The notes under the pieces are model-generated. The model had not been told where the DNA came from. It worked only from the letters and a program-made list of their open reading frames with translations, and made no database searches. The position numbers and the translations under genes are program-made. A DNA stretch of 64,000 bases. Source: Eledone cirrhosa (lineage: Eukaryota). The stretch lies in NCBI GenBank assembly GCA_964016885.1, contig OZ024741.1, positions 143,778,001 through 143,842,000 on the forward strand, written 5' to 3'. Positions 5,556 to 61,485 of this stretch are shown piece after piece (positions within the stretch are counted from its first letter, which is position 1; every line of letters starts with the position of its first letter).

Positions 5556-5804
5556 ATTTCATCTATTGATTCAGAGTTGCTCGTGTATTCCCAGCTCATC
5601 CATCCATAACGGTGGGAAAATTGAGGGCTAGAAGGACAGTGGTGGTGGGGTAATGGCAGGGTGTGTTGGGATGCGCCAGAGGAGGAGAGAGTTAGTTAGG
5701 CAGGTAGTAGCAGCAGCAGCAGTGGAAATGGCATGCTAGGTTTGATTGGTCGAATAGACTATGGTGGTGTGTGGGGGTGGGGGGGAGGGGGAGGGAAATT
5801 GTGA

Positions 5805-11800: not shown

Positions 11801-12408
11801 CTAATACAGCAGGGAAAATTTAACGCTAATACAGCAGGGAACATCATAATATTAACGACATGAAAAAGCTACTAAGAGAAACCCTCGAAAATTTATCGCT
11901 AATACAGCAGGGAAAATTTAACGCTAATACAGCAGGGAACATCATAATATTAACGACAATATGTAGGCTAAAATACCTTCGTAGATTAGGTGGATGGCTG
12001 GCTGGGAAAATTTGAAACAGCTCTACTGGTACATTTTAGCAGAGAAGAATGGCAAAGTGTCTTATCTCTTCAATATTTTCAGATTGAATGAATTAGGTTA
12101 AAGACAGGGTAGTAAGCCTTAAAGAAGTGCATAGAGGGGGGGGGGGGGTAGGAACTGAGGGTCGCATGGTAAATATCCAAGTTAATACTACATCAGTAAA
12201 ATTAACAATAATAACGTCATGAAAAAAGCTACTAAGAGAAACCCTCGAAAATTTATCGCTAATACAGCAGGGAAAATTTAACGCTAATACAGCAGGGAAC
12301 ATCATAATATTAACGACATGAAAAAGCTACTAAGAGAAACCCTCGAAAATTTATCGCTAATACAGCAGGGAAAATTTAACGCTAATACAGCAGGGAACAT
12401 CATAATAT
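5805..12408. repeat. Higher-order tandem array of ~13 units of ~510 bp (three of ~605 bp)
   Basis: The marker GTGCATAGA(G)n occurs 12 times (6243 to 12127). Each unit has 2 or 3 copies of a ~98-bp subunit, which itself holds two CGCTAATACAGCAGGGAA copies. Confidence 0.98.
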
Positions 12409-12419
12409 ATATGTGTGTC

Positions 12420-12780
12420 TGTGTGTGTTTATGTATTTGTTTTGCATGATTCTTGATGGGAAATCGTGTGTTGAAACCGATATTGTTATATATGTGGATG
12501 GTCATATTGCTAGGATTGCCAATAAAAAGAAACCTACGCACCATATGATTTTTACTTTTTTATTTTATCTTTATTATTAGTTATTTGTTTTTTTGTCAAA
12601 GTTCTTTTGCCTCACATTCTGTGACATCATCAATGACTATCTGTTACTTCATCTTCTCTTTTCAAAGACTAAAATAGAGTTACAGATTGAAACCAGAAAG
12701 AAGAGGGTGCACAAAATAGGAGAGATAGTCATTGAGGGGGTCACAGAATGTGTGGCGAAACAACTTCGACAAACTAAAGA
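12420..12780. mobile_element. Decayed Penelope-like terminal-repeat fragments, including an inverted pair of degenerate hammerheads
   Basis: 12440-12545 is the reverse complement of 15440-15540. 12593-12665 and 12700-12775 are inverted arms resembling the 15281 hammerhead. Confidence 0.6.
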
Positions 12781-14332: not shown

Positions 14333-15546
14333 ATGGTAAATAATGACATAAATGGGACCTGCCCCTTGTATAGGAGCAAATTTGGAATAGAATAGAAAGA
14401 ACTAGGAACAAGGCCAATAGAATAAACTCATGGTATGATAGCAATAAATACCAGAGTGTAATTTTCATCAATACAACCCCTAGAGGCGAACTAGCCTACA
14501 AATTTAGAAGGGCCCTAAATAAACATAATCTCAATATTAAGATAGTAGAAACACCTGGTACCTCCGTAAAAACACTTATTAGCAAGACATACCCGTTCCA
14601 AAGACCCTCATGTATAGATAAGAAATGTATAACCTGTAAAATAAGCCCCCATATTAACTGTAAAACTAGAAATGTAGTGTATAGCATAAGATGTACTGAA
14701 GGACAATGTAGAAACAAAAATATAGTGTACATAGGTGAGACAGCTCGTAGTATAGGGGAACGAATAAATGAACACTGGCGAGACCTCCAAGATAATAAAG
14801 AATCATCTGTGCTCTACCAACATGCTAAGATAGAACACAGGGGTAGATTAGAGAGCATAGAAATAAAAATAGAATCCACACACAGAAAAGACGCAATGTT
14901 TAGGCAAATTACAGAGGCAGTAAGCATAAAAGGATTAAAACCAAAATTAAATAGAAAATATGAGTGGAACAGCAACATCACAACTTACAATTAAGGACAA
15001 AATGAAAACACACACACACATAGAACAAACAACTTACAATTGAAAACACACACAAAATGAAAACACACACAGGACAAAATGAAAACAAACAACCAACCAA
15101 CAATAAATAAATAAATAAACAAATAGAAAAATATAAATAGAAAAATAGAAAAATGAACACCAACACACACAGACACCCGGATGTGGCGCATGCGCAAACT
15201 GAGCACACAACACACACACAGAAACAAAATGGCGTAGGATAGAAGAAAGGAAAGGCACAGAAACGAAGAGGGGAATCCCCAGTCACTGAAGAGGTCACAG
15301 AGTGTGTGACGAAAGGACTATGACTATATATATAAACAACTATCTGGTTGTGGGACCAACCAACCAACCGGAAATTTATAAGTTTGTAAATTTGTAAATT
15401 TATAAATTTATAAATATATAATAAATTGAAGTGAAAGCAACTGGTGCGTGTGTTTCTTATTGGCAACATGACCCTCCCAAAGTATAACAATATCGGTTTC
15501 AACACACGATTTCAGATAAAGAATCTTGCTAAACAAATTCAGAAAC

Positions 15547-15548
<2 letters not shown>
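14333..15548 (+). mobile_element. 5'-truncated Penelope-like element with GIY-YIG endonuclease and terminal repeat
   Basis: Open frame 14383-14994 with SVIFINTTP, IKIVETPG, a Cys-rich linker, NVVYSIRC...VYIGETARSIGERINEH and RQITEAV. One frameshift near 14380. Flanked by (TA)n. Subclade (Naiad-like) is tentative. Confidence 0.9.
15281..15325 (+). ncRNA. Minimal type I hammerhead ribozyme in the Penelope terminal repeat
   Basis: AGTCA-CTGAAGA-G-GTCAC(AGAGTGT)GTGAC-GAAA-GGAC-TA-TGACT. Stems I and II pair; stem III is vestigial. Confidence 0.7.
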
Positions 15549-16425
<877 letters not shown>

Positions 16426-16485
16426 GTTGATTTAAAACTGCACTATCCACAAGTGTTTTTTTAGCCTTCATATCATGTTCTCCTG

Positions 16486-16552
16486 TTTTATCTGATGAAA
16501 ACACAAATATTATTGCATGATGATGTTTGTTTTTGAAATGCGCATAATAAAA
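16486..16552 (+). ncRNA. Type I hammerhead ribozyme with palindromic stem III
   Basis: TTTTAT-CTGATGA-long stem II (ACAAATATTATT/GATGATGTTTGT)-GAAA-TGCGCA-TA-ATAAAA. Second copy at 61535-61601. Confidence 0.8.
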
Positions 16553-16590
16553 TACATGGAACTCCTTTAACCATCTTTTGATCTTATATT

Positions 16591-17712: not shown

Positions 17713-17772
17713 TGTAAAATAAAGAAAAAAAACTTAATTTCTTAAAGTTACTCCCTCTCTAGTCAGCATTAC

Positions 17773-18009
17773 CTTGTACAGAAGTTCCTCTTTTGTCTTA
17801 GAAGAGTACATGAGGTGTACTTTTTCTGGAAGATCGGTTTTGTCGACACCAGATGCTTCTCTCTCGGTTACCAAGTTAAGAATGCTAAAAATTGAATTCA
17901 TACCAATTCCAGCTGCAATTAAAAGTAAGTCGTGCTGGGGTTCTTTTAGTTGAGGATCATAAAAAGTTGTACCACCAAATTCAACGAGAACTGTGTCGCC
18001 GACTTTACT
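17773..18009 (-). CDS. OXNAD1: OXNAD1-like coding exon C (SKVGDTVLVEFGGTTFYDPQ...LLLIAAGIGMNSIFSIL...LMYSSKTKEELLYK)
   Basis: ttctcAG acceptor, AAG|GTAATG donor, 237 nt open frame. Contains an IAxGxG NAD-binding motif and YSxKxxxELLxK as in OXNAD1. Not in the supplied ORF track. Confidence 0.88.
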
Positions 18010-18061
18010 CTGAGAAAATTAATAAAACAAAAGAAAAAATCAAAAACAGATACATTTATTA

Positions 18062-18718
18062 CACTGGTCAACAAAATTTTGCTTCTTTTCTACTGACCTA
18101 AGTTTGAGACATGTTCATGAGTAATTTGGGATTGCTGAGTTTTAAAATGACAATACTTTTTTCTATCACGTCTTTTACTTGGCCAACAAATGGAAGGAGG
18201 GGGGGGGGGGTATACAAAATATCCGTGTTTCATGTGTTTATGGGATAGCCGAGCGAAAGACAAACATTGGGAACAGAAGCACTGGTCAGTTAGAAAAAGG
18301 GTGACTGTTGAGGAAAAGAATATCATACACCAACCACTTGTTGGGCGAGAGAAAATCATTTTCCCACCCTTTCATATTAAACTAGGACTAATGAAACAGT
18401 TTGTCAAAGCTCTTAATGTGGAGGGTGGCTGTTTCATATTCATATGTACAACATTTCTTGGCCTAAGTTATGATAAAATAAAGGCTGGTGTTTTTGACGA
18501 GACACAAATCAGAGAGTTAATGAAATGTCAAAACTTCTTGAGCTCGATGACTGATGTAGAAAAAAGAGCATGGGATTCATTTGTTGTGAAAAGTTTTGGG
18601 GGCAAGAAAAAGGCTGCGAACTATAAGGATTTGGTGGAGACATTGCAACATGAGCATAAAGATTCATTTCCTCAAGAGCCATCTCGATGAATTTCCTGTT
18701 AATCTTGGACACATGAGA
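18062..18718 (+). mobile_element. Chapaev3-like (CMC) DNA transposon remnant, internally deleted
   Basis: CACTG start; GGYTKYPCFMCLWDSRA and PPFHIKLGLMKQFVKAL. The frame ..FPVNLGHM is interrupted at 18718 and resumes as EGGER near 19327. Confidence 0.8.
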
Positions 18719-18751
18719 GATAGAAAGACAGATAGATAGAAAGATAGATAG

Positions 18752-19302
18752 ATATATTTCTTTATTAACCACAAGGGCGCACAAGAAAAGGGGACAATAC
18801 AAAGACATGCCGGGGATTTTACATACAGTCGTGTAAAAAATATAAAAACAAACAATTACAACAATCGAAATCCCTAATAGGGGGGAGGCGCCACAAATGG
18901 GTTGTTTAATACCCCGTCGATAGAACAACTCTCAACTCCAGGAGCGTGTTGTGCAAGTGCTCATTTCTTCCTTTTGCTCTCTTCTTCAACCTACAGGCTT
19001 ATAAACAGAAAAGGCCCAATCACTCGGGCCATTTTCGCTTCATTCACCCACCTTTCAGTAAATTTACTGGGGTGCAGTGCCTCTCTCTCCACCCTGATTC
19101 TCCTTCTAAAGTGATACTTAAAGAAGGGAATCAATTGTTGTTCGGAGAGAAAAGCATCTCTCCTCAGTCCTCTCAACCTCGTCCACCATATAACTTCTTT
19201 CACCATAGCTACTGTACAGAAGAAAACCGCCTCTCTTTTGTTTTTGAAAGAGGCTGGCAGTTTGATCCTTACTATGGACTCGGCAGTCAACTGTATTTGA
19301 AA
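18752..19302 (-). mobile_element. 3' end of an L1/Tx1-type LINE between (GATA)n tracts
   Basis: C-terminal ORF ..VAMVKEVIWWTR...RIRVER....F.ERW, then 3' UTR with AATAAA; (GATA)n on both sides. Confidence 0.7.
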
Positions 19303-19414
19303 GATAGATAGATAGACAGATAGATAGAAGGAGGGGAGCGAATGAAAGGAACAATTCTCTAAATAGAAAAAGAAATCCTGTCAAAAGAAACAAATATATA
19401 TTTTAATCAAATAC

Positions 19415-19556
19415 CTCAGAGTTCATCCAGTGTGAGCTGGCATGTTTACTATATTTTACTGCGAGTTGAATGATACCCGTTCTAGCAAATTCTAAAGGAC
19501 TGTTACATACTGTGTAACCCCCTAAGCGATCAATAGATGGTATACTGACGTGGATC
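19415..19556 (-). CDS. OXNAD1: OXNAD1-like coding exon B (IHVSIPSIDRLGGYTVCNSPLEFARTGIIQLAVKYSKHASSHWMNSE)
   Basis: ttttccAG acceptor, GAG|GTATTT donor, 142 nt; its first base completes the Trp codon of exon A. Aligns by eye to OXNAD1 IPG..VGGFSICSSP...IELAVK...HPPA.W. Confidence 0.85.
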
Positions 19557-19599
19557 CTGGAAAAGAAAACAGCAAAGGAAATATATTTTAATTAAAACA

Positions 19600-19705
<106 letters not shown>

Positions 19706-19759
19706 TCATCATCATCATCATTTCATTTTACGTCCGCTTTTCCCTGCTATAGTAAAAAA

Positions 19760-20968
19760 TTGAACGGAAACAAAACAGAGAGGCAGTACGAACAAAGGTT
19801 TATTAGTTTCACGCTCTTGAGAGTGGGGTGGTGGTGGGGAACGATGTTTCGGGCATAAGCCCTTCTTCAGGTGAAAAGTGTATGGGAAGAGAGTTCCAAG
19901 GGTGTGTAGGGGAGTGGTGGAGAGACATATAGAAAAAAGGGAGTGAGAGGAAACGGTACAAATGAAATTAAATATAAAAGCATAATAAAAATAAAAATAA
20001 ATATGAAGTAAAACAGGTGGTGGAAGGGTGTGGGGTGTGTAGGGGTGGTGGCGAGTGGAGTGTGGAGGCGGGGTGTCCGAGCGGGGAGGGCTGAAGGTGG
20101 TGTGTGTATGTGTAGGTGTAGGTGTGTTGTGTGTGTGTGTGTGTGTGTAGGTGAAAGTAAGAGTTGGGGAAGAACGGGGTTGCATGTTCAGGAAGAGGTG
20201 TGTGTGGGGTGGGGTGTAGGTCGGAGTGTGTGTGCGTGTGTAGGGTGGGGAGGGGTCAGAGGGGTGGGGGGAGAGGATTTCGGAGGCTGAGTGTGTAAAT
20301 ATGTGGTGGTACGCACGTGTGTGTGTGGTGTTTATGTGTGTTGTGGATGTAGGTGGCGTGTGGGAAAAAATTTTTTTTGAGTGTATTTCAGTGGGTGAGT
20401 CCTTAAGGTAGTTCCGTAGAGGATGTGGTGGAATGCTGGGTAATATCCTTGGGATGTGGTGGATTCTAGGGATCGATGTTCAATATGTGTAATCCGTGAA
20501 GAGATTGGTCGGAAGAGGGGAGATGTGGGGTGCGCGCGCAACAGGAAGTGGTCAGAGAGTCAAGGCAGGAGGAGGGTTGTGTGTCTGTGTGTGCGGGGAG
20601 CTGATCAGAGATAAGGGCATAGCAGCAATCGGGTAGAATGGTAAGTGAAGAAAGTCGGTGTGTCAGTGTGTGCGGAGGTGCGGTGGACAGGGGAGAGGAT
20701 GGGTAGGTGTGAAAGTTGGAGTGAGGAGGGTGTGTGTGTGTATTAGTAGAGGTGTTAGTGGGATGTGTGTGTGTGTGAGAAAGGGTGTGGGTGGAGCGGG
20801 GAGAGAAGGGTGTGGGGACGGTGGAGGAAGTGTAGTGTACTGGTGTGTGTGTGCGTGTTTGGATGAGTGTGTGTGTGGTGAAGGGGGTGTTAGTGGGTGT
20901 TAGTATACTGGAGGTGGGGAAAGGGTTGAATGCGGATAGTGTAAGAGGGTGTGTGTAGGGTTGGGGGA
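19760..20968 (-). mobile_element. Non-autonomous Penelope-like element, CA-rich, with a hammerhead core
   Basis: Minus strand CTGAAGA-A-GGGC(TTAT)GCCC-GAAA-CATCG at 19870-19842; no convincing stem I. Confidence 0.5.
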
Positions 20969-20982
20969 TATATATATATATA

Positions 20983-21115
20983 TTTGCAAAAAAAGGAAAA
21001 GAATGACTTCACTTGTAGTGTTAACAAATTTTGATTTAATTTTATAATATTATAAAATTAAATCAAAATTTTTTAACACTACAAGTGAAGTCATTCTTTT
21101 CCTTTTTTTTCAAAT
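20983..21115. repeat. Near-perfect ~130-bp palindrome beside (TA)n
   Basis: AAAAGGAAAAGAATGACTTCACTTGTAGTGTTAA... is mirrored about ~21048. Confidence 0.95.
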
Positions 21116-21296
21116 ATACCTAACTGTACCAAGGATCTTACACATTTTCCAATATATATATAATATATTGGAAAAGGGAAGTGAGGTTCTATACAAAACA
21201 GTGGATATAGAGAAAAGATGAAGTTGGAAATAGCACGGGAGATATATTTAAGGGTCTGTTTTTCTTTTTTGATTCGTCAAAGTGACATTATTGAAA

Positions 21297-21426
21297 AGAG
21301 TTACGGCCCTTTATGGTCTGAGTTCAAATCCCGCTTTTGCCTTTCATCCTTACGGAGTCGATAAAATAAAGTACCAGTAATGTACTGAGTAATTGCTGGC
21401 CTTGTGCCAAAGTAGAAACAATTATT
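21297..21426 (+). mobile_element. tRNA-derived SINE, truncated
   Basis: Core and tail match the family; lies tail-to-tail with the next copy. Confidence 0.9.
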
Positions 21427-21454
21427 GAAAAAATAGTGTTATTAAAAAGATAAT

Positions 21455-21640
21455 TGTTTCTACTTTTGGCACAAGGCCAGCAATTACCCAGTACATTACT
21501 GGTACTTTATTTTATCGACCCCGTAAGGATGAAAGGCAAAGTTAACCTCGGCGGGATTTGAACTCAGAATGGCAAGGGCCGTAACTCTATGCGTCAAAGC
21601 ATGGCGTCCGACCCTCTACCGACGCTGCCAATCCACCGCC
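21455..21640 (-). mobile_element. Full-length tRNA-derived SINE with 20-bp TSD
   Basis: TSD AGTGTTATTAAAAAGATAAT at 21435-21454 and 21641-21660; head has A- and B-box-like motifs. Confidence 0.95.
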
Positions 21641-21911
21641 AGTGTTATTAAAAAGATAATGTTATTAAAAAAGAGAGGGACAATTCTTTTTTAAAAATTT
21701 TTTTATGAAGTATATAAAGTATATGAGAAAATTACTGGTTTCGATGTATTAAGATCCATCTTGTCAAATTCAGTGAAAAAAGTTAATTAAAAAGAGTTGG
21801 TAGGAGTAAATAAAGGTTTAAAATTAAAATCAAAATCGAATGTTTGAGTAAAATTTCTTCCATCATGCTTCCTTAAAAGTTGGCTGGGAATGAGATATAT
21901 ATATATATAAA

Positions 21912-22621
21912 TGTATGTATAGTATATTTGGCAATATACCGTATGCTTAATTAAAAACATTTTGAAGACCATACGCTATCAGTTTTAAAGTAGTGACTAT
22001 GTCACTTACTTCTTTTCTTCGGCGAAAGAAGGGAGAGAAGCTAACAAACTGTCTGTTGGCGATCATCAGAGCAACGTACTTTCCGCCTTCGCCGAAGATT
22101 ATAGACGCTGGATTCTTATAGAATTCCAGTAATAATCAGCGATTGCCGGTCCAGCAAAAATTAGGTGTTAGGATTGGTGCTCTGAAATAGCGATGTATAC
22201 ATGAATACATGAATGTATGTATAGTATATTTGGCAATATACCGTATGCTTAATTAAAAACATTTTGAAGACCATACGGTATATTGCCAAATATACTATAC
22301 ATACATTCATGTATACATCGCTATTTCAGAGCACCAATCCTAATACCTAATTTTTGCTGGACCGGCAATCGCTCTGTATAATCAGCTCCTGATTATTACT
22401 GAAATTCTATAAAAATCCAGTTTCTGTAATCTTCGGCGAAGGAGTACGTTGTTAGCTTCTGTCCCTTCTTTCGCCGAAGAAAAGAAGTAAGTGACATAGT
22501 CACTACTTTAAAACTGATAGCGTATGGTCTTCAAAATGTTTTAAATTAAGCATACGGTATATTGCCAAATACACTATACATATATTCATGTATACATCGC
22601 TATTTCAGAGCACCAATCCTA
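21912..22621. repeat. Compound foldback (direct plus inverted copies of a ~290-bp unit) in (TA)n
   Basis: 21912-22200 is inverted at ~22310-22580, with partial re-duplications. Confidence 0.9.
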
Positions 22622-22630
22622 ATATATATA

Positions 22631-24365
22631 TCTATACTATAAAGCTGACGGCCGTATGTAAGTAACAAACTTTCCGCCAAGCGGTTGGACCAAACGGCAC
22701 CAAATTTGTACCATAGATGTAACTTTTTCCAAGTAAGAAAGTGAGGGTATTTTTGTCTACTGAATGTTGTTAAAAGATTAAAGACATTATTTAAATATTC
22801 ACTTCTTTAACATTTTCAAATGTCAACACCTCCGGTTATACGACATTCCCAACGTCTTCACGAACCAAAGTATCATCTTCCTGTTTTCTTTAGGTTGCAA
22901 CGTTTTTCGAAATATTTACTTCTGCGTTCACTGATTGATTTTTTTAGTTTCAGAGATCCCGTTAAGAGTGAAAGCAGCGATTCTTTGCTTAAACTTTAAT
23001 CTGTTATTTTAATATATATATATATAATTATATATTTGTGTACAGATATTTTTGCATCCACAAAAACAAAATATAACAAACGTATTTATTTCACGAAAGC
23101 ACAGACGGCTTATCGTCATTGTTACTCCCGAGATGCCACCCAAAAAGTCCCAGCCTGGCCGCAAGATCAGATTTTCTAGAAGAAAAAATGTTATAACAAA
23201 CGTATTTATTTCACGAAAGCACAGACGACTTATCGTCATTGTTACTGTCGAGATGCCACCCGAAAAGTCCTAGCCTGGCCGCAAGATCAGATTTTTCAGA
23301 AGAAAAAATGTTACTAGAGCAACAGAGAGACTAAGCTTCGCGATTTCCATCAACAAAGCTCACGGTCAAACCCTAAAAGTGGCTGGCTTTCATCTGGGAA
23401 AACCATGGTCAAGTGTATGTAGGATGCTCTGGGTTGAGCTCGCCAAACAATCTCTTCATCTCCCGAGGGCCTAACAAAAAATATTGTATACTCTGAGGCT
23501 CTAACAAAGTAATTTATGTATTTTCTGTTACTTGGAATTTCCATTATGGTTGTACATATTATTGTAAAGTTTGTTAAAAAATTTGTTCTCTGTTCAATCT
23601 TTATTGTTGTAACTATCAATTTTCTTTAACATACTAGCTGAGAGAAGAAACCTACAATGAAAGAACATCTTAAAGTTTACCCAAGCCAAATGTATTTATT
23701 ATCATTTCTATCTGCAGGTTCTTAGCAAGCTTACTGGCGCTTTAGTATGGTATTCAATTCTCATATCGTTTTTGATTGATATGGTGCATATATCGCAGCT
23801 ATTCATATGTTTTAAACATTAGATAACGATTGCTGATGTATATTGTACGACAGAATTAGCTGAAAAATATTTTGAATGAACAAATAAAAGAGATATAAAA
23901 GAGAGATGTTTGTTGGTTGGTTCCTTCGCGTATCACACTAAAAAAACGGAAAGTGACAATCGGAAAGTATGTACAGGATTGGGATAAGAGTATATCCAGG
24001 TAAGTTTATTGATACTAATTTTATAACACCAAAGAAGAAAGACATACACCGTATGCTAACCAACCTGACTGCTATTTCTAGCAGGTTGGGAATCAACCAT
24101 AAGGGATTCTCTCTGCAAGTTCGTTGTCAGTGATGATCGTGTTTCGCGGCCTATGTCTCCGATTCCAACGGTGGTTTACACACACACGCGCGCGCGCACA
24201 CGCACACACACACACGAACACTCACACACACACATATATACACAAACAACACACACACACACTGTAAACAAGACAATGCATTCAATACAGACGTTTTCTC
24301 TTCTGCCGGTCTTCTCTTATCATTTGTTAACCTTGGCGAAGCTGGGTACCGAAGCCGGGTACTAG
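22631..24365 (+). mobile_element. Internally deleted Helitron
   Basis: A|TC start (TCTATACTATAAAG) and GC-rich subterminal hairpin followed by CTAG|T. 23328-23512 reads RLSFAISINKAHGQTLKVAG..HGQVYVGCS..TKNIVYSEAL (Pif1-type helicase end). 120-bp tandem duplication containing MPPKK at 23073-23312. Confidence 0.85.
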
Positions 24366-24399
24366 TATATATATATATGAAAAAAGAGAAAACTGACTT

Positions 24400-25090
24400 C
24401 ACTGGTGGTATATCTCTCCGAAGACACTCACTCTGCCTATTGCAGACTGCGCATCAACATGAAATATCCTTCTTCACAAAGTTTGATCACCTACAACAGA
24501 GTTTCCTTCTAGGCATAACGAGTTGATCTTTTGATATGACCACACAGTTTAAGTACTCTTGACTTGATAACTGATGTGATTGGTTTAAACTTGGTAATGT
24601 TGAGTAGCTATTCATAGAGATATGTTCTCCGAGTCGTTTGTTAGTCATAAGTCTCATGGTTCTGGAATGTAAAGAGCTTCTGAAGTGACCTTGCTGTTCA
24701 GTTAACACAATGAAGACCATATAACACAACTAGTAGGATGTAAGTGTCAAAGATCTTAGCCTTCAAATGATAGGAAACCTGTTTTGATGTTAGCACGTCT
24801 TTGTTCCTGTTAAAAGCTTCTCAACCCAGAGAGATGGGATACTGCACAGCGGCCGCTCCATTATTGATGATAGTTTGTGACCGAGGTATACAAACTACGT
24901 AACTTGAGCAGTTTGCTGGTTGTAAATTGTGATTGGCATTGTTTTTATCAGTTGTCAAACACTTCGTATTGGAGATGATGTATAAGCCAACCTCAGGAAG
25001 TTTTGCAGATCTAAGGTTTTTATTTAGAGCAATCGAGTGCTGTCATAGATTCCCACGTTTTCAAATCACCCAAGTACGCCGATAATCCAT
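24400..25090 (-). mobile_element. Highly decayed Penelope-like GIY-YIG remnant
   Basis: Broken-frame motifs KNLRSAKL, TSCVIW and RLGEH occur in the expected order. Confidence 0.4.
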
Positions 25091-25755
25091 AATTTATATA
25101 TATATGCAGACAGTAGATGTTGTACGCTCTCTTGCTGCATTAAGTGTGGCCAAAACTCGAGTACGGTATAAATTTGTGGTATCCATTTACGTGTGTTGTA
25201 TTGAGGCAAATAACTTCTGTCTACGCTGGGATTTTTACATAACCTTACCTATTGAGTACGGTGAGATGCAACCAGTACTAGCAGGGAAACCTTATGCTAG
25301 TCCCGTCAACTTCTTATATATATATATATATATATATATCCCTTGTTGGAAATAACACGTGACAACTAAGTGTTTGCTGGCTGCCTCTAGCGGCCGCATT
25401 TAACTCGTCCACTCCGATTTATGGCAGAACGGAATCCCTGTTGAAATGAATCCTCTGTTCGATCATGGAATACCACGAGCGTGCCTGTTACGTAAGTTGG
25501 ATAACTGATTTTGTATTCATAGAAACACTTTAAGCGTATATCGTTTGATTTGTCCAGGTGTATCTTTTTAACCTGTTAATTTTTTTCGTTACTTTGGTAT
25601 TGTGTGGTTAGGTTTTGCCTACCACAATTTGTCAAGCTATTTAAACGTATGTTATTACTCTAAGGACCTACCCTTATTGAGTGCTTTGCTAACTCATTCA
25701 TATTGTAGGTCGACTTTGCCCACAGCCAAAGCTTCGATTTTACTAAGCTTCCACT

Positions 25756-25803
<48 letters not shown>

Positions 25804-26019
25804 TTAGAACCCTGTAACCATTAAGCTCTAAGTATAAAGTACAAATAAATACTGAGCCGATTAACAATATATAGTAAGAAACACAGTAAACCGTGTGTCT
25901 AAAATTACAAGGGTTGAAAAACCACATATGCTTGAAATATTTAACCAAGAAACAGACAGGATGACAAAATGAAAATAAAAATATATTATCATAATACAAA
26001 CCGCCTCAATAACCATTAT

Positions 26020-26101
26020 ATCTCTCGGACAGATTATCCCTAATCTGTTTCGCCCTGAGTGTGTTTGTAACAGATAATCCTGGGCTTCATCAGCGAGAGA
26101 T
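26020..26101 (-). ncRNA. Complete type I hammerhead ribozyme with GUC cleavage site
   Basis: ATCTCTCG-CTGATGA-A-GCCC(26 nt)GGGC-GAAA-CAGATTA(GGGA)TAATCTG-TC-CGAGAGAT. All three stems are Watson-Crick and the core is intact. Confidence 0.9.
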
Positions 26102-26214
26102 TGCAATTAAATGTCACAAACACTATTTGCCAACGTTCACACAGAAAGATGAATTTATCACCTCGTGCGCCGCCAGTCAAACGTGGTAAGCGCGTATTGA
26201 ACAGAAATAACAGT

Positions 26215-26286
<72 letters not shown>

Positions 26287-26822
26287 TAAAAATTCTTAGA
26301 AGTATATTTACAGAGTCCACTTGAAAGTTACGCTAAAGGTGTACACGTGATTGGAATACTCAGCCGCCTTGCACGTTAATTCATTGACTGGGTTGTTCAG
26401 TTGAGGGAACATCTAGACCAAAGGTTCTCAACGGCCGGCGTTTCGGAGCTCCAAGGGGGGGGGGGGGCGTTTCGGAGCAAGGGGCGCGCGGGGAGGGGGG
26501 GGGGGGGTCTGGAGGCTATTTACTTAGGCAAGTTTTATAAGCCATATTTGTACGTCTCTGAGACAGCCAGTGTGAGTGCATTTGAATGAAGAAAACGAAG
26601 AAAATAAATAAAAGAAGCTTGTCAACGAATCCCCCTAGGGAGATAAAAGAAAAACGAAAGAAATCAAAGAAAAGGAAAATAAGGACAACGTCAACTTTGA
26701 CAACAGTTACAAGAACAACAGAAACGACAAGAAAAAAAAACGATGGTGATGAAAGGTGTGGGTGTATACATATACATACATACAATCATACACACACATG
26801 CATACGTACATACATACATACA

Positions 26823-26854
<32 letters not shown>

Positions 26855-27068
26855 CACACACAGGCCGGCGTTGGTGTTTGATGAGGTTGAGAACCTGGTC
26901 AGCTTTCAACCAGAGCTGTGGTATTTAATCTCCGTAAGTAATAAAATCTGGAGACAACATTCTCTCCTTACCCCCCCCCCCCCACCCCTAAAAAAGAAAA
27001 CATAAATCATGTCAACATCCTTACACACTTAAATATAAATGCATGTATATATACAAATGTATAAATAC

Positions 27069-27955
27069 ATAAACGGAAAAAATGAAACGAAATTTCATTT
27101 CCCACTCTTAGTACGGCTGTTACTTAAATATAAGTATGTACACGTACATACATATATGTATACAGACGTACAGTAGTATGTATATATATACATACATGCA
27201 CACATATATATATATATGTACGTATGGATTCACCGAACATTTATTATAATGCTCGGTGTGTTTGTAAACAAACATCCCGTATTAAGCCGTAGTGTCTAGC
27301 AACCATCGTTGCTCGTTTGTTCAACACTGACAAAGGAACGCTGTACTAGTTTCAAGCTTATTAGCTTTCGTCAGCAACGTATACCTTCCTGCCAGATTGT
27401 TGAACGTATATAATTACCTTATGCATATTAACGGCTGAGTAGCCCAATTTGCATATCGAGTGGGTTAATCGGCCGGGGTACCGAAAACGATAAACGGAAA
27501 AAATGAAACGAAATTTAATTTCCCACTCTTAGTACGGCTGTTACTTAAATATAAGTATGTACACGTACATACATATATGTATACAGACGTACAGTACTAT
27601 GTATATATATACATACATGCACACATATATATATGTACGTATGGATTCACCGAACATTTATTATAATGCTCGGTGTGTTTGTAAACAAACATCCCGTATT
27701 AAGCCGTAGTGTCCAGCAACCATCGTTGCTCGTTTGTTCAGCGTTCCTTTGTCAGTGTTGAACAAACGAGCAATGATGGTTGCTGGACACTACGGCTTAA
27801 TACGGGATGTTTGTTTACAAACACACCGAGCATTATAATAAATGTTCGGTGAATCCATACGTACATATATATATATATGTGTGCATGTATGTATATATAT
27901 ATACATACTACTGTACGTCTGTATACATATATGTATGTACGTGTACATACTTATA
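27069..27955. mobile_element. Penelope-type terminal repeat: copy, partial tandem copy and inverted copy
   Basis: 27069-27490, 27491-27740 and inverted ~27741-27955; further copies at 16619-16930 and 33322-33640. Confidence 0.8.
27338..27380 (-). ncRNA. Minimal type I hammerhead ribozyme with palindromic stem III
   Basis: ACGTTG-CTGACGA-AAGCT(AATA)AGCTT-GAAA-CTAG-TA-CAGCGT. Confidence 0.85.
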
Positions 27956-28007
27956 TAAATACATAGCTATATACATAGGTAAATGTATGTATGTATATAT
28001 ATATTAT

Positions 28008-28060
<53 letters not shown>

Positions 28061-28321
28061 CTTTTTTCAGTCTGGTCTACCTCTGGTGGTAGGGTCCGTA
28101 CCGTAGATAGGACTCAATGTACTATTGTAAAATTCATAGAGAAGTTCTATGTTTCGCTGAATTAATTCTTTAGATACAGAGTCAGATATTAGGTATTAAA
28201 TTAACAATAAAAATAAAAACAACAAAATAAAAACAAAGTTATAAAGTAACTTGACTTTCTTATTTTTATTTTCATTGTTAACTTGATAACACACACACAC
28301 GCATATATATATATATATATA

Positions 28322-28445
28322 TGCGCAGTGTGACAAGAAGCTTGCTTCCCAACCACATGTTTCCGGGTTCAGTCCCACTGCCCGAGCCAACCAAAGCCCT
28401 GTGAGTGGCTTTGATAGACCGAAACTAAAAGAAGCGCGTCGTATA
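28322..28445 (+). mobile_element. Second tRNA-derived SINE family, deleted copy
   Basis: AAGAAGCTTGCTTCCCAACCACATG..GGGTTCAGTCCCACTG..AAAGAAGCGCGTCGTATAT. Older related SINE fragments near 13270-13640, 37480-37680, 38940-39245, 43560-44230 and 49200-49740. Confidence 0.7.
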
Positions 28446-28469
28446 TATGCATATATATGTCTGTGTGTG

Positions 28470-31400
28470 GGGGCATAGGGGGTTTGGACAGGGGTATTAC
28501 CCTTGATGGTTGACAGCTGCACCCTAACTGGCCCCCACCCATCCCCTAAATCTCTCACGTGTGGCTCCAAGCGCCATGCCCCGGCACACCGCTTCAGCTG
28601 GTGGACTGAACCACGTGAGGGGGTGGTGTTGACACGGCACCACTAGGCGTATGAGCTTGTAGTGACCTACATTCCGCGGGCTCACATACATTCTCTGTGC
28701 GTGATTTGGCTCAGTTCAGCCAATCAGCGCCAGTAGAAGAGGATGTATCCCTACGCGCCCTGAGGAAGAAATTCCCCGCGAAGATTTGAAGAATCTCTCT
28801 CTTGTACCAGAAACTTCAAGCCAGCAACACGCATAATGTAACAGTGAGATATTGCACCCTAGCCTCGCCGGCTTAACGGCGCAATGGCACATTCCCTTTT
28901 GTAACCGCTTTTTATCTGTAACTTCAACCATATAAATAAACAAACATTTCATCTCTAATTACTGCTGTTGAAATCATTGTTATGTTACTCGTGTCTCAAT
29001 AACATCTATAATCCATGCTGCTGGAATTGGCGACCTGACGAAAGGAATATTGTAAATAGATGGTAAATAGATCGAGGGACCTTCCCTCACGTCTATGTCA
29101 ACAAGATAATCCAACGAGGATACTATCACTTACCACACTGGCAACTAACGACCTTCAATCATCTACCCTGTTAAAGTAACGACCACTGATTCTACCACCC
29201 TGCTAAAGTGGCGACTACAATAATAACTAATACTGTTAAAAGCTTCAACAAGGAAGCCACTGGTTAAAGCAGAAGGAAATCCTCCCTCGGCACCGGTCCA
29301 GGACTGAAGGCGACCCACACCATATTCCATGGCCATCTGTTTGCAGTTCTACCAGAGACTACTCCACTTACTGTCTCTTTACTAAATGTCAGTGGTTGGG
29401 CTTCAGGTTAGCGACCTGTTCCCGGTAAAACTCTCCTGCTACGAAAACAATTCATAGTGCATCAGATTCAAATTCCAAGCAGTCAGGAGAACGGTTGTCT
29501 CTAACCGGAGATTGTGTGACGTGTGTCGGCAAAGGTCTCAATGAGGAAGCCGACATCCTGAGGACCAGAATTCTGTCTGCAAAAACAACCACACGTATTG
29601 GATATTGGAACATAAGAACTATGTACCAACCATCCAAACTTGCGCAAGTTATCGGAGAAATCGAGGCCTACAAAATTAACATCCTGGGCCTCAGCGAGGT
29701 CCGCTGGACTGACTCTGGGAAGTTTGTCCATGAAAACAAGACCATCCTGTTCTCGGGCCGTCAGAACGGGACCCACCGAGATGAAGTTGCAATCATCATG
29801 GACAGGGCTGCCAGTAGTGCCCTTGAGGAGTGGACTCCTATCAACGAACGCCTAATGACAGCAAGATTCACCACATCACATGCAAAGGTCACCATAGCTC
29901 AGTGCTATGCTCCAACCAACGAACATAACGACGATGACAAGGACGCTTTCTACCAGCAACTACAAGATGTTGTCAACAAAACCCCACGTCATGACATCCC
30001 GATCATCATGGGAGACATGAACGCACAGATCGAGGGAAGCAGGGTTGGCTTTGAACATGTCCTTGGCCCCCATGCTTATGGAAACCGCACGGACAACGGG
30101 GACAGGTTTGTCCAGTTCTGTTCCATGAACAATATGAAAATCGGCTCGTCACTATTTGACCACAAGAACATCCACAAGGTCACATGGGCTTCGAACGACC
30201 ACAGGACCAAGACGCAAATAGACCACATTGCAATTGGCCCAAGTTGGAGAACTCCTTACCTGCAGGACGTCCGAGTCTACCGAGGCGCAGATGTCTGCAG
30301 TGACCTCTATCTATCTGTTACCAAACTTAAAATCAGACTGAGGAAGCAGAAGAAGAAAGCATCCACTACAAGGCGTTTTGACACTACCAAGCTGAAGAAC
30401 GGTTACACAGAAGCACAGTTCGAGGCTGCTTTGAGGAACAGATTTGCTGTCCTTGAGGAGTCTGCGCCAGGCTCGGTCAATTGGTGGGAGGAAATGAAGA
30501 AGACCATGGAAGCTGCAGGGGAAGAAATCCTGGGCTACAGGAAGTCCCTCAGAGAAGCTTGGGTCAGCGACAACACCTGGCAGCTGATTAATGAAAGGAA
30601 AGCCCTACACCAGCAGAGGCATGCCACTACCCCAGAGGCCATCAAAGTTTATCAGCAGTATGTTGAGAAGGACAAGGAGGTGAAACGCAGCGCCCAAAAG
30701 GACAAACGAATGTGGCTTGAGAGTAAGGCAGAGGAGGCACAAGCAGCTGCGGCACGCAATGACATGCGCTCTGTGTACCAAATTGCCAAGAAAATCACCG
30801 GCAGCTCTAGAGCTAATTCAGGCCCGGTGGAAGCGAAAGATGGGCTGAACATTTCAAGGAAGTCCTCAACCGAGCGGAGCCACGTATGCCAGCAGACACT
30901 AAGGAACCTACTAGTTTGTTACCTATCAATACTGATGACTTCACCGAGAAGGAAGTCCGCATGGCCATCAAAACCCTTAAGAATAACAAGTCACCAGGTA
31001 TGGATGGCATTTCTGCTGAAATGCTGAAGTCAGGAGGCGATAGCATGGTCAAGTGGATGGGCCACTTATGTAATCTTGTGTGGAACACGGGTGAAGTCCC
31101 AGAAGACTGGAGAAACGGAGCGGTTGTGTATCCCCAAGAAGGGCAACCTTGCCGATTGTGACAACTGGAGGGGAGTGACACTTCTCTCCATACCGGGGAA
31201 GGTCTATTGTCTGGTGATCCTGAACCGCATACGTGGCATGGTAGACCGGGGACTGCGAGAACAACAGGCAGGGTTCCGACCAAAACGTTCCTGTGCAGAG
31301 CAGATCTTTACGCTACACCGCATCATTGAGAGGTACAACGAATTCAAGAGGCCCCTCGCCATCAGTTTCATCGATTTCTCCAAAGCATTCGATAGCATTC

Positions 31401-32082
31401 ATCGACCGTCACTCTGGAGCATCATGCATGAGTATGGTCTGCCCCAGAAAGTCATTTCGGCAATCAAACAGATTTACGCAAACTCCAAGTGCTGCATACG
31501 GACAGAGGATGGTTACAGTGACTGGTTTGAGGTGGTTACTGGCGTGCGTCAAGGTTGCTCGCTCTCTCCAATTCTCTTTGCCATAGCCATTGACTGGGTA
31601 CTAAGAAGAGCGTCTAAAGACCAGGGTATATCTTGGGTGGGAGAGCAAAAGTTGTCTGACCTGGACTTTGCGGACGATATTGCTGCACTTGCAGAGAGCA
31701 CAGCTGACCTGCAAATCATTGTGAACAATATCAATGTCGAAGCAGGAAGCTTAGGTCTCAATATCAGTGCCAAGAAGACCAAAAGTATGTTATCTGGGAC
31801 ACACCCATCACCAACTAGTGTCTTCATTGAACAGGGGGAGGTGGAGATAGTGGACAACTTCACCTACCTAGGAAGCTCCATTAACAATGAGGGCACCATG
31901 GACAGTGAACTGCAATGTAGAATGGGAAAGGCTTCAGCAGCATTTAACCAGCTTGACAAGATCTGGAAGAGCAGGAAGTTCACCCTCAAAACAAAGATGA
32001 GATTCTATAACAGCAACATGCTGTCCACACTCTTGTACGGAAGTGAAACATGGCACCTTAAGACCAGCCAAGAGAAGAAGTT
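28470..32082 (+). mobile_element. Decayed RTE-clade LINE (APE plus RT), frameshifted and 3'-truncated
   Basis: GYWNIRTM, LSEVRW, QCYAPT, GDMNA, IDHIA; then IDFSKAFDS, GVRQGCSLSP, DFADD, YGSETW across three frames (29495, 30886, 31076). Confidence 0.92.
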
Positions 32083-32220
32083 GATAATAAATTTAAAATG
32101 ATTTGATTGAAATAAAAAGACACGCCGAAATTATTTCTACATAAAAAAATTATATCAAAAATTTTAATGTTTTGGTATATCATTAAGGTGGAATTTATTA
32201 TAAAAGGTTGGGAACCGCTG
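32081..32220. mobile_element. Right end of a hAT/Charlie-like MITE
   Basis: AAAAGGTTGGGAACCGCTG terminus followed by the typical target ATCTAGAC. Confidence 0.65.
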
Positions 32221-32242
32221 ATCTAGACGATCATGCGTGAGA

Positions 32243-32387
<145 letters not shown>

Positions 32388-32972
32388 TGTGTGTGTGTGT
32401 GTGTGCGAGTGGGTGCACTTATCCATTTTTTTATGTATATGTATATTTATAGCTGTAACAAAACTTGCAATCATATAATCATCTCTATACGTATATGTGT
32501 GAATATGTAAATGTATGTACGTGTGTATGTTTCTGTGAGTGTGGTTATATGCGCGTGCAGTATGCATTAATTACATCAAACACGCTCTATTAGCCCTTAG
32601 CTCCTGGTGTTATTGTAGCGGCGCCATCATCTTTTCAGGTCTGAATACAGTAGATTTCTTCTAGTGAAAGAGAATGAGTAACGGTGATAGGAAGTGAGAA
32701 GGAGGTATAGAGGTGGGGGTGCAATTGACCTTTATACTGTACTGGTTCTTTATTTATTGACCTCGAAAGGATGAAAAGCAAAGCTGACCTGCGCGAGATT
32801 TGAATTCTAGAGTTGGAATGATGCTCCAACGTATTTTTTCAGGTGTTCTAACACTACTCTGCCAGTTCGCCGAGACTTTAAAAGACAAGACAGCCACATC
32901 AGGAATTCTTCTTATCATAGGTCTGATTGATCAGGTTCGAAATGGACTTAACAATAAGAACATTCAACTCAC

Positions 32973-33076
32973 CATTGTCCGGCCTTAAAAGACACATCCT
33001 TGTTCCAGTCTGCGAGTAATTTAATTCCTTTTACTGTCGGGGACAACTCCCAAATTTCTATAATTTGAGTTCGACG
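32973..33076 (-). CDS. OXNAD1: OXNAD1-like oxidoreductase, internal coding exon A (RRTQIIEIWELSPTVKGIKLLADWNKDVSFKAGQ-W)
   Basis: Poly-T/AG acceptor, TG|GTGAGT donor, 104 nt (phase 0 to 2). SPTVK...SFKAGQW matches the start of the OXNAD1 FAD-binding domain and splices in frame to the next exon. Confidence 0.85.
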
Positions 33077-33153
33077 CTTAAAAAAAAAGTTTGATACAAG
33101 GGAAAAAAAACTGCGTTTTAATTCATATAAATCCTGGGTTTCTCCCCTGGAAC

Positions 33154-33245
<92 letters not shown>

Positions 33246-33993
33246 CAAAGAATGAGAAATAAAATAGTTTAAGGGGACGAACGTGATGGAATTGGAAAAA
33301 ATGTCTTTATATATATATATATATAAACGGAAAAAATGAAACGAAATTCATTTCCCACTCTTAGTACGGCTGTTACTTAAATATAAGCATGTACACGTAC
33401 ATACATATATGTATACAGACGTACAGTAGTATGTATATATATATATACATACATGCACACATATATATATGTACGTATGGATTCACCGAACATTTATTAT
33501 AATGCTCGGTGTATTTGTAAACAAACATCCCGTATTAAGCCGTAGTGTCCAGCAACCATCGCTGCTCGTTTGTGTGGCAACAATCTGGCTTGTAGTGATG
33601 GTTGCAGGACACTACGGCTTAATACGGGATGTTTGTTTGGCAACAATCTGGCTTGTAGTGGGTCTCTTCTTGCTTACATCTCACACACATCGGACGGTCT
33701 GTACCTCTCTCGCTCATGAAATCCACCCAGCTTATGCTGACCGGACAACCATGTTGCTTGCTTATTTTCCTATCTTCGGTTTGCTTTTATCCTTCTATGT
33801 TGTTTACTTGTCCCCCTCGCTTTACGCGAATTACTGGTCCCAATAACTTTTTTTAGTTATTGCTCGCACCAACCTGAGGTATCTGATTTTTAATGCGATG
33901 AAATACCAATGATGGTTGGAAAATCACTGACGAAGGACTATTTTTATCATATGTAACCCATGTGCAAACCACACAGTATTCTTCTTTCTTCTC

Positions 33994-35237: not shown

Positions 35238-35481
35238 GATATTAATAAATGGAAACTATATTTATAAAACCATATTTATTTCATTATACATATTTCAGGG
35301 ATACCAAATTAAAATATGGTATGCCTTCATCAGACAAAATACAATATATAAACAGTTTTATAAATAATTTTGACGTACCCTATTAAATGCAACCATTATT
35401 TTGGGAAGCTGTCTGGATAGTGCTTTATATCAGTTATAAAATATTTACTTGTTGTATCCCAACGATTTTAAATAGAACTTT

Positions 35482-39269: not shown

Positions 39270-39476
39270 TCTGGAGATCTCTCTGCACTTGTCGTCACAT
39301 GGTACCATGGACCCAGCACTATGTGTCTATAATTGTCACAAGTGTAGTGTTTGTACCAGAGTTTTCAAGTCGCTGGCTGGACTAAAAAGTCACACTCGTC
39401 CAGCGCATCGGTAGGGATTCTCCTACATGGATATAAAGTAGTGGCCGTACTCGAAAACGAGTTGGCAGCCACCATG
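39270..39476 (+). mobile_element. Short RTE 3' fragment (C2H2 finger and 3' hairpin)
   Basis: CSVCTRVFKSLAGLKSH; end GGCCGTACTCGAAAACGAG..GGCAGCCA is shared with the next element. Confidence 0.75.
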
Positions 39477-39540
39477 TATGTATGTATGTATGTATGTATG
39501 TATGTATGTATGTATGTATGTATGTATGTATGTATGTATG

Positions 39541-55697: not shown

Positions 55698-61485
<5,788 letters not shown>

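What the first reader, a model, noticed from the sequence alone, without database searches (positions are those of the whole stretch)
26020..26101. Textbook GUC hammerhead, sense to the host pre-mRNA
Seen: intact core, 8-bp stem I, 4-bp stem II with a 26-nt loop, and a full stem III, unlike the minimal stem III of the other motifs here. It lies on the minus strand inside the 13.4-kb intron between OXNAD1-like exons A and B. Inference: it could cleave as a monomer co-transcriptionally and affect splicing or output of the host gene.
Basis: partly seen in the sequence, partly recalled or inferred. Interest (0 to 1): 0.75.

Follow-up and report, generated by a model that had tools for sequence, protein, structure and literature searches.

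The report
Hammerhead retrozyme copy inside an intron
The self-cutting-RNA motif is real, but it belongs to one recent, truncated copy of a 467-base non-coding repeat with hundreds of copies in this animal genome, likely pasted in by a Penelope-type jumping gene, and a neighbouring stretch of the repeat is predicted to pair with it and slow or block cutting, so it is unlikely to be a regulator of the host gene.

Summary
The type I hammerhead at 26020-26101(-) is confirmed: 8-bp stem I, 4-bp stem II with a 26-nt loop, 8-bp stem III, GUC site 26028^26027. It has one extra A after A9, so it is not quite textbook. The host gene (OXNAD1-like), its strand and the 13,416-bp intron are confirmed.

The motif is not a lone intronic ribozyme. 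It sits in a 5'-truncated copy (25791-26217) of a 467-bp ORF-less repeat. The genome holds at least 438 motif copies in three subfamilies, in tandem arrays ending in (TA)n. 66 of 78 two-armed insertions have one long and one short end, the Penelope 'tail' signature. The window copy is identical to copies elsewhere, so it is young.

New here: (1) a 5' flank pairs with loop II over 12+5 bp, and nested folding drops the active share from 0.55 to 0.002; this is an off-switch or a pseudoknot, and covariation cannot decide. (2) One insertion (L056) joins a unit arm head-to-head to a young Neptune-like element, a hint at the helper.

Cleavage, circles and host effects are untested. The scan found such retrozymes before on other DNA of this genome. 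Verdict: new member of the non-LTR retrozymes.

The parts
25791..26217 (-). 5'-truncated single copy (unit nt 41-467) of the 467-bp retrozyme, subfamily A
   Evidence: 100% to the L001 unit; 0 differences to copies in L001-L003
26020..26101 (-). Type I hammerhead: stem I 8 bp, CUGAUGA plus extra A, stem II 4 bp, stem III 8 bp with GGGA loop
26027..26028 (-). Predicted cleavage site, after GUC (26030-26028)
   Evidence: hammerhead consensus; not assayed
26056..26081 (-). 26-nt loop II; 26079-26075 and 26072-26061 are complementary to the 5' flank
26105..26123 (-). 5' flank that pairs with loop II (12 bp at 26123-26112 plus 5 bp at 26109-26105): predicted off-switch, or in part a stem I-stem II pseudoknot
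   Evidence: duplex -20 kcal/mol, reached by 0.1% of 2000 shuffles; active share 0.55 to 0.002
25866..25873 (-). Internal AUAUAU motif: the short 3' end of family insertions (inferred second reverse-transcription start)
   Evidence: 102 of 238 arms end here; predicted unpaired 0.93
25760..25800 (.). (TA)n tract at the long 3' end: target site and inferred primer
   Evidence: 114 of 238 arms end at this unit position
26217..26280 (.). (AG)32 tract at the truncated 5' end; the empty site was likely a compound (CT)n(AT)n microsatellite like those at 19605-19703 and 33157-33244
   Evidence: inference
19557..32972 (-). Host intron, 13,416 bp, GT..AG
32973..33077 (-). OXNAD1-like exon A (3' end shown by the X4 contig; 5' end inferred from the AG)
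19415..19556 (-). OXNAD1-like exon B
17772..18009 (-). OXNAD1-like exon C (NAD-binding part)
14333..15549 (+). 5'-truncated Neptune-like Penelope element (GIY-YIG frame 14374-14994, minimal hammerhead 15281-15325): a copy of the candidate helper family

Best explanation
The motif is the hammerhead of a 467-bp non-coding repeat with hundreds of genomic copies, a non-LTR retrozyme likely copied into TA microsatellites by a Penelope-like reverse transcriptase, and the window copy is a recent truncated insertion that would cut the host intron slowly if at all.

Shown: repeat nature, tandem arrays, two fixed 3' ends about 75 nt apart at AUAUAU motifs, (TA)n targets, head-to-head arms, copies that run through the cut site, and no long ORF.

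Inferred: (1) tandem loci are transcribed and the ribozyme releases unit RNAs that are ligated into circles; (2) the 5' flank pairs with loop II and holds the ribozyme mostly off, which would keep the circle or multimer intact as a template; (3) a Penelope-like RT/GIY-YIG protein, most likely the young Neptune-like family, breaks (TA)n DNA, primes one end at each start site and copies the same RNA more than once round, giving tandem arms joined at their truncated 5' ends; (4) the window copy has one ribozyme, cannot release a unit, and is a dead end.
For: Copy number: 213 exact 27-mers and 438 stem III motifs, reversed controls 0. Arrays reach 6-8 pieces per arm. Of 78 two-armed insertions among 146 loci, 66 pair a long with a short end, 0 long-long, 1 short-short and 11 have one irregular end; 176 of 216 anchored arm ends abut TA repeats. 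This matches the one-sided 'tail', inverted 5'-truncated copy and two internal RT starts described for PLEs (10.1101/2021.04.23.441226 passages; PMC11167929), and the local Neptune-like family shows the same pattern. Only 3 of 238 arm 5' ends lie within 5 nt of the cut site; among 80 shorter arms, 40 cross it and 2 stop there, so templates were circular or uncut. 30 locus-private variants are shared by all covering copies, 17 of them by both opposite arms (16 loci); 9 of 30 are A>G against 18 of 267 single-copy variants (Fisher p 4e-4), which fits A-to-I-edited RNA templates. The circle folds at z -4.7 (0 of 100 shuffles as stable). GC 36%, longest ATG frame 62-88 aa. In L056 a Neptune-like arm and a unit arm are joined 5'-to-5' inside the PLE ORF with a 2-nt overlap, both 3' ends in (TA)n. 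That family has 98-100% identical copies and stop-free frames over 1000 aa.
Against: No cleavage, circle or cut-site RNA end was seen: only contigs were available. The one abundant family contig in X4 (287 nt, depth 246) is a subfamily C copy with 6 of 29 diagnostic letters found in none of the best-matching subfamily C copies compared, so it may be an old copy inside a host transcript; window-type pieces have depth 3-13. No covariation supports any helix (1 both-sided change; 283 of 500 shuffles as high). Loci were picked by ribozyme motifs, which inflates ribozyme conservation and read-through counts. A>G over T>C among shared variants is only 9 vs 5 (p 0.058), and most private variants are single-copy. 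The helper link rests on 1 of 146 loci; 0 of 49 other Neptune-like stretches held a unit; the PLE end in L056 is 15 nt short of its usual end; L055 joins units to another PLE lineage. In PMC11167929 uncut linear RNA is the main PLE substrate and ribozyme cutting is dispensable in vitro, so the circle is not proven.
Confidence: 0.8

Rival explanations
1. Same mobile family, but the flank-loop II pairing is an activating pseudoknot that aligns stems I and II, so the ribozyme cuts fast as a monomer, also in the host intron.
For: About 40% of hammerheads are predicted to use a stem I-stem II pseudoknot, and the human C10orf118 intronic one needs a 5-bp one (PMC3088659 passages). The 5-bp part lies 4 nt from stem I and 2 nt above stem II. 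A crude sum for active fold plus 12-bp helix is -41.5 kcal/mol before any pseudoknot penalty, against -36.1 nested. Changes between subfamilies mostly keep pairing on one side. ViennaRNA cannot model pseudoknots.
Against: The full 17-bp pairing leaves only 2+5 linker nt, likely too short to coexist with stem II (geometric inference). The helix forms before stems I and II can (prefixes). One pair is broken in 28 of 69 sequences. Genomic copies read through the cut site.
Confidence: 0.3
2. Non-autonomous Penelope passenger copied from linear, uncut multimeric transcripts; no circle is needed and the ribozyme matters little for mobility.
For: [quoted passage not shown] Most arms are 1-2 pieces long (229 of 238). 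The predicted block would keep RNA uncut.
Against: Three subfamilies only 79-83% alike keep 75 of 82 ribozyme columns against 270 of 392 elsewhere (biased by how copies were picked). What differs is the bulged base (A/U), loop III, the loop II closing bases and the outermost stem I pair. Related retrozymes give circles in vivo (PMC7229834).
Confidence: 0.25
3. The unit is the pseudo-LTR of an autonomous Penelope-like element not sampled here.
For: Extra base after A9, tails and inversions are PLE traits (PMC4209133). Xenopus retrozymes are related to pLTRs (10.64898/2026.07.22.740005). Only 146 loci were examined.
Against: In 146 loci, 47 with PLE-like coding pieces nearby, none has the unit as a direct repeat behind an intact ORF end. 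No similarity to the Neptune-like 3' repeat beyond 13-nt matches.
Confidence: 0.1
4. A domesticated intronic ribozyme that tunes splicing or output of the OXNAD1-like gene.
For: Sense to a transcribed intron, complete monomeric fold; conserved intronic hammerheads exist in RECK and C10orf118 (PMC3088659 passage).
Against: One of at least 438 copies, identical to copies elsewhere; predicted blocked in context; A-B splicing seen; the intron also holds other mobile elements.
Confidence: 0.05

Closest known systems
Metazoan non-LTR retrozymes (coral, mussel, axolotl: PMC7229834; vertebrates: bioRxiv 10.64898/2026.07.22.740005)
   Same: Non-coding, low-GC tandem units each with a type I hammerhead; monomers, dimers and multimers; strongly self-paired circle predicted; PLEs present in the same genome.
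   Different: Unit 457-470 bp, at or above the 150-450 bp range of PMC7229834 (inside the 51-972 bp of the preprint); 8-bp stem III instead of 1-2 bp; ribozyme predicted blocked in the circle, which PMC7229834 reports for plant retrozymes, viroids and only some mussel circles; strict (TA)n targeting with paired long and short ends; no target duplication readable.
Penelope-like element pLTRs and tails (Neptune, Poseidon; PMC4209133, PMC11167929, 10.1101/2021.04.23.441226)
   Same: Extra nucleotide between A9 and G10.1; two 3' ends defining a one-sided tail; inverted 5'-truncated arm; AT-rich or microsatellite targets.
   Different: No ORF; full stem III instead of a minimal dimer-type one; tail about 75 nt against 30-40; both start sites are AUAUAU motifs complementary to the target, whereas Poseidon starts in an AC-rich hairpin without homology.
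Conserved intronic hammerheads of RECK (HH9) and C10orf118 (PMC3088659)
   Same: Type I, long stem III, intronic and sense; a possible flank pseudoknot as in C10orf118.
   Different: Those are isolated and conserved across vertebrates; this one is a young copy of a large repeat family; the Rfam HH9 score is 15.6 against a threshold of 52.

Membership tests
Type I hammerhead ribozyme | Core CUGANGA / GAAA / NUH at a three-stem junction with stem I open | tested here: met
   extra A at 26086 is a known variant (PMC3705267, PMC4209133)
Type I hammerhead ribozyme | Helices supported by covariation | tested here: inconclusive
   96% of cells paired, 1 both-sided change, not above shuffles; family too young
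Type I hammerhead ribozyme | [quoted passage not shown] | tested here: inconclusive
   stem I is 8 bp without a bulge; flank-loop II pairing could be a pseudoknot or a block
Type I hammerhead ribozyme | Self-cleavage at the NUH site | not testable with these tools
   no raw RNA reads
Non-LTR retrozyme | Tandem units of a few hundred bp, each with a type I hammerhead | tested here: met
   457-470-bp units, arrays to 6-8 pieces
Non-LTR retrozyme | Non-coding, GC under 50%, no LTR architecture | tested here: met
   GC 36%, longest ATG frame 62-88 aa; head-to-tail units only; PBS and PPT not searched
Non-LTR retrozyme | Dispersed, many copies, PLEs in the same genome | tested here: met
Non-LTR retrozyme | Highly self-paired predicted circle | tested here: met
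   z -4.7, 0 of 100 shuffles
Non-LTR retrozyme | Expressed as unit-length linear and circular RNA | tested here: inconclusive
   X4 contigs bridge the cut site but cannot show ends or circles
Non-LTR retrozyme | Long target-site duplications when present | tested here: inconclusive
   flanks are TA repeats, so a duplication cannot be read
PLE pseudo-LTR | Direct repeat flanking an RT plus GIY-YIG ORF | tested here: not met
   0 of 146 loci
PLE-type insertion | One-sided tail, inverted truncated arm, microsatellite target | tested here: met
   66 of 78 two-armed insertions; 176 of 216 ends at TA
Domesticated intronic ribozyme | Single copy, conserved at the orthologous intron | tested here: not met
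   at least 438 copies, identical ones elsewhere; orthologous site in other species not available

The most novel reading that the evidence does not exclude
An animal retrozyme with a built-in RNA switch: one flank sequence either locks the hammerhead (17-bp helix) to protect the circular template or, partly paired, braces it as a pseudoknot. The genome also records its helper directly, in a single insertion whose one arm was copied from a Neptune-type Penelope RNA and the other from the retrozyme RNA. That would name a specific retrozyme-PLE pair that can be reconstituted in vitro.
Probability: 0.3. Interest if true: 0.62.

Novelty: new member of a known kind. Interest (0 to 1): 0.36.

Why it matters
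As an intronic regulator it matters little. As a family it bears on two open points in the papers read: which enzyme moves animal retrozymes (PLEs are proposed from co-occurrence and homology, not shown), and how their circles avoid cutting themselves (PMC7229834 had to invoke something other than self-pairing for most animals). Paired long and short ends, variants shared by both arms, a mixed Neptune-retrozyme insertion and a predicted flank lock give a concrete, testable pair of RNA and protein. For annotation it is a caution: in this genome a well-formed sense intronic hammerhead is expected from mobile copies alone.

Tried and rejected
Rfam: nothing at gathering score; E-value mode gave microsatellite-driven miRNA hits and a weak HH9.
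The repeat finder on the window was swamped by TA repeats.
The first OXNAD1 motif scan found nothing because motifs are split by introns; PF00970 in the genome hit only another contig.
Sequencing runs: no RNA holder listed; X4 was recognised as RNA only by its splice joints. X5 does not cover the host exons, so the orthologous site could not be checked; holes in contig cover were not used.
One search used a mis-registered structure and is void; one search replaces it.
I first called the L055/L044 element 'Naiad'; it has a C-terminal GIY-YIG-like motif (read by eye; no Pfam hit), so the label was dropped and the clade is not determined.
L055 was rejected as helper evidence: the PLE lacks its 3' end and the short arm is cut, which fits a later deletion. 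Units 19-75 bp from PLE pieces across TA (L033, L044, L135) were read as shared targets.
The 1152-aa Neptune-like frame in L195 gave no Pfam hit at E 0.01; its 624-aa counterpart in L056 hits RVT_1 and GIY-YIG at E about 1e-4, below curated cut-offs. 'Neptune-like' rests on the CxxxxCxxC motif before GIY-YIG, read by eye; no tree was built.
Pairing of loop II with the stem III 5' strand was considered but did not appear in the predicted folds. A Pol III B-box-like 9-mer is not kept across subfamilies.
Rows dropped: 16 overlapping or unrelated loci; L143 (old, diverged) and 12 nt at piece ends.
Literature: searches listed no paper on cephalopod retrozymes or on a mixed retrozyme-PLE junction (listings and abstracts only); supplements were not read and could hold octopus families.

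Full report
1. Observation. The minus strand at 26101-26020 reads as a type I hammerhead: 8-bp stem I, CUGAUGA, one extra A (26086), 4-bp stem II, 26-nt loop II, GAAA, 8-bp stem III with a GGGA loop, and GUC with the cut at 26028^26027. The 82-mer folds this way. A strict descriptor finds it once in the window and in 0 of 100 shuffles; a loose one finds 5 motifs against 0.12 per shuffle, and the other four have 2-4-bp stems III. The extra base is common in Penelope hammerheads (PMC4209133, passages). In a viroid hammerhead A there slows cutting moderately and U speeds it up (PMC3705267, passage); the family uses A or U.

2. Host gene. Exon 18009-17773 is 71% identical to an OXNAD1-like protein of Argonauta hians, so the animal is likely an octopod. 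Run X4, not on record as RNA, has a 1247-nt contig (depth 71.6) that skips 18010-19414 at GT..AG on the minus strand and continues past 19557 into exon A. The intron is 32972-19557, 13,416 bp. It is transcribed on the ribozyme strand and spliced normally in that sample; whether the sample carries the insertion is unknown.

3. What the motif belongs to. 241 bp around it match many genomic places at 98-100% (44 matches from 40 of 1315 candidates scored). Exact patterns give 213, 230 and 438 copies with 0 controls, 40 of them with loop III inverted to UCCC. The unit is 467 bp; the window holds nt 41-467 between (TA)n and (AG)n and is identical over 427 nt to copies in L001-L003. Three reference copies (467, 457, 469 bp) are 79-83% alike; 75 of 82 ribozyme columns are invariant against 270 of 392 elsewhere, with the caveat that copies were found by ribozyme patterns. 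GC is 36% and no ATG frame exceeds 88 aa.

4. Insertion anatomy (146 distinct loci, 238 arms). 114 arms end at the unit end and 102 at an internal AUAUAU about 75 nt earlier; 176 of these 216 abut TA repeats. Of 78 two-armed insertions, 66 have one long and one short end, none two long. This is the PLE pattern of an inverted truncated arm and a one-sided tail (10.1101/2021.04.23.441226, passages), which PMC11167929 (parts 1-2 of 4 read) traces to two internal reverse-transcription starts. Both start motifs are mostly predicted unpaired (0.73-0.93, except 0.37 for the end motif of subfamily A). Arm 5' ends do not gather at the cut site (3 of 238 within 5 nt); among 80 shorter arms, less affected by selection, 40 cross the site and 2 stop there. 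So templates were circular or uncut. 17 locus-private variants sit in both opposite arms (16 loci; some lie near the inversion point, and gene conversion is possible), and shared variants are enriched for A>G (9 of 30 vs 18 of 267, p 4e-4; against T>C only p 0.058). The editing lead came from earlier notes and was tested here.

5. Helper. No locus has the unit as a direct repeat behind an ORF. In L056 a Neptune-like element (RVT_1 and GIY-YIG at E about 1e-4) and a unit arm point outward from a joint inside the PLE ORF, with a 2-nt overlap, and each ends in (TA)n. This is the family's two-armed layout with one arm from another RNA. The Neptune-like family is young, has stop-free frames of 1041-1152 aa, two 3' ends and two-armed insertions, and has a copy in the window (14333-15549). 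Against: one case in 146; none in 49 other Neptune-like stretches (some overlapping); a deletion between two neighbouring insertions is not excluded; L055 touches another PLE lineage.

6. The flank. 26123-26112 pairs with 26072-26061 in loop II (12 bp) and 26109-26105 with 26079-26075 (5 bp): -20 kcal/mol, reached by 0.1% of 2000 shuffles, and kept in all three references. In nested models the active share is 0.55 without the flank, 0.002 with it and 0.0002 in the circle (0.004 and 0.019 for the other two circles). The helix can form before stems I and II are complete. It could instead, in part, be the stem I-stem II pseudoknot known from many hammerheads (PMC3088659, passages). Covariation does not decide. 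I put lock over brace at about 60:40. PMC7229834 (parts 2-4 of 6 read) notes that most animal retrozyme circles leave the ribozyme free, so a lock would be a variant.

7. Expression. In X4 a 287-nt contig at depth 246 spans the cut site and matches subfamily C at 23 of 29 diagnostic letters, the rest not found in the best-matching copies; window-type pieces have depth 3-13. Contigs show neither ends nor circles, so this shows presence in RNA only.

8. Mechanism, committed. Tandem loci are transcribed (inferred), cut and ligated to circles (inferred by analogy), held mostly off by the flank (predicted), and copied by a Penelope-like protein from both ends of a break in (TA)n (anatomy shown, enzyme inferred). 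The window copy is a one-armed, single-ribozyme dead end. An effect on the host is unlikely: hammerhead cutting within an intron left splicing intact in mammalian reporters while a faster ribozyme did not (second-hand in PMC2995048, passages).

9. Novelty. The class and its proposed PLE origin are published (PMC7229834; 10.64898/2026.07.22.740005, parts 1-3 of 5 read). Searches listed no paper on cephalopod retrozymes or mixed junctions; supplements were not read. This scan has described several other retrozyme families with paired ends in this genome; a sequence look-up found no note on this family. Verdict: new member of a known kind, with two testable extras. Interest 0.36.

Noticed in passing
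window 27069-27956: Second hammerhead repeat family, period about 421 bp with an inverted arm; minimal motif at 27338-27380(-), also sense in the same intron. A similar-looking piece lies near 33330-33500.
   Followed up: partly
window 14333-15549: Truncated Neptune-like Penelope element with GIY-YIG frame and minimal hammerhead (15281-15325), between TA tracts; family young, with long open frames elsewhere.
   Followed up: yes
window 16484-16554(+) and 35277-35341(-): Two further hammerhead-like motifs with AT-rich stem I and 4-bp stem III.
   Followed up: no
window 5747-12522: Tandem array of about 13 near-identical 507-bp units with an internal 98-bp duplication, inside a later intron of the host gene.
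   Followed up: no
window 2436-5558(-), 29429-32101(+), 39442-41059(+): LINE-like endonuclease/RT frames, the first open for 1040 aa (RTE-type resemblance is recalled, not tested).
   Followed up: no
window 55733-56392 and 60690-61349: 660-nt inverted repeat, 99% complementary, around 4.3 kb of TA-rich DNA; transposase-like frames at 61826-62679 (resemblance recalled).
   Followed up: no
L092-L121 (subfamily C): Loop III is the exact reverse complement (GGGA to UCCC) with the 8-bp stem unchanged: a hairpin-loop micro-inversion fixed in a subfamily.
   Followed up: partly
run X5 on L001:1332-1798: A run labelled as a second organism holds four contigs 95-100% identical to the unit but does not cover the host exons: related species, transfer or mislabel not resolved.
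   Followed up: no
L045-L048: Four loci within 240 kb carry the same two-armed insertion with identical break points, so it was amplified later as part of a larger duplication.
   Followed up: no
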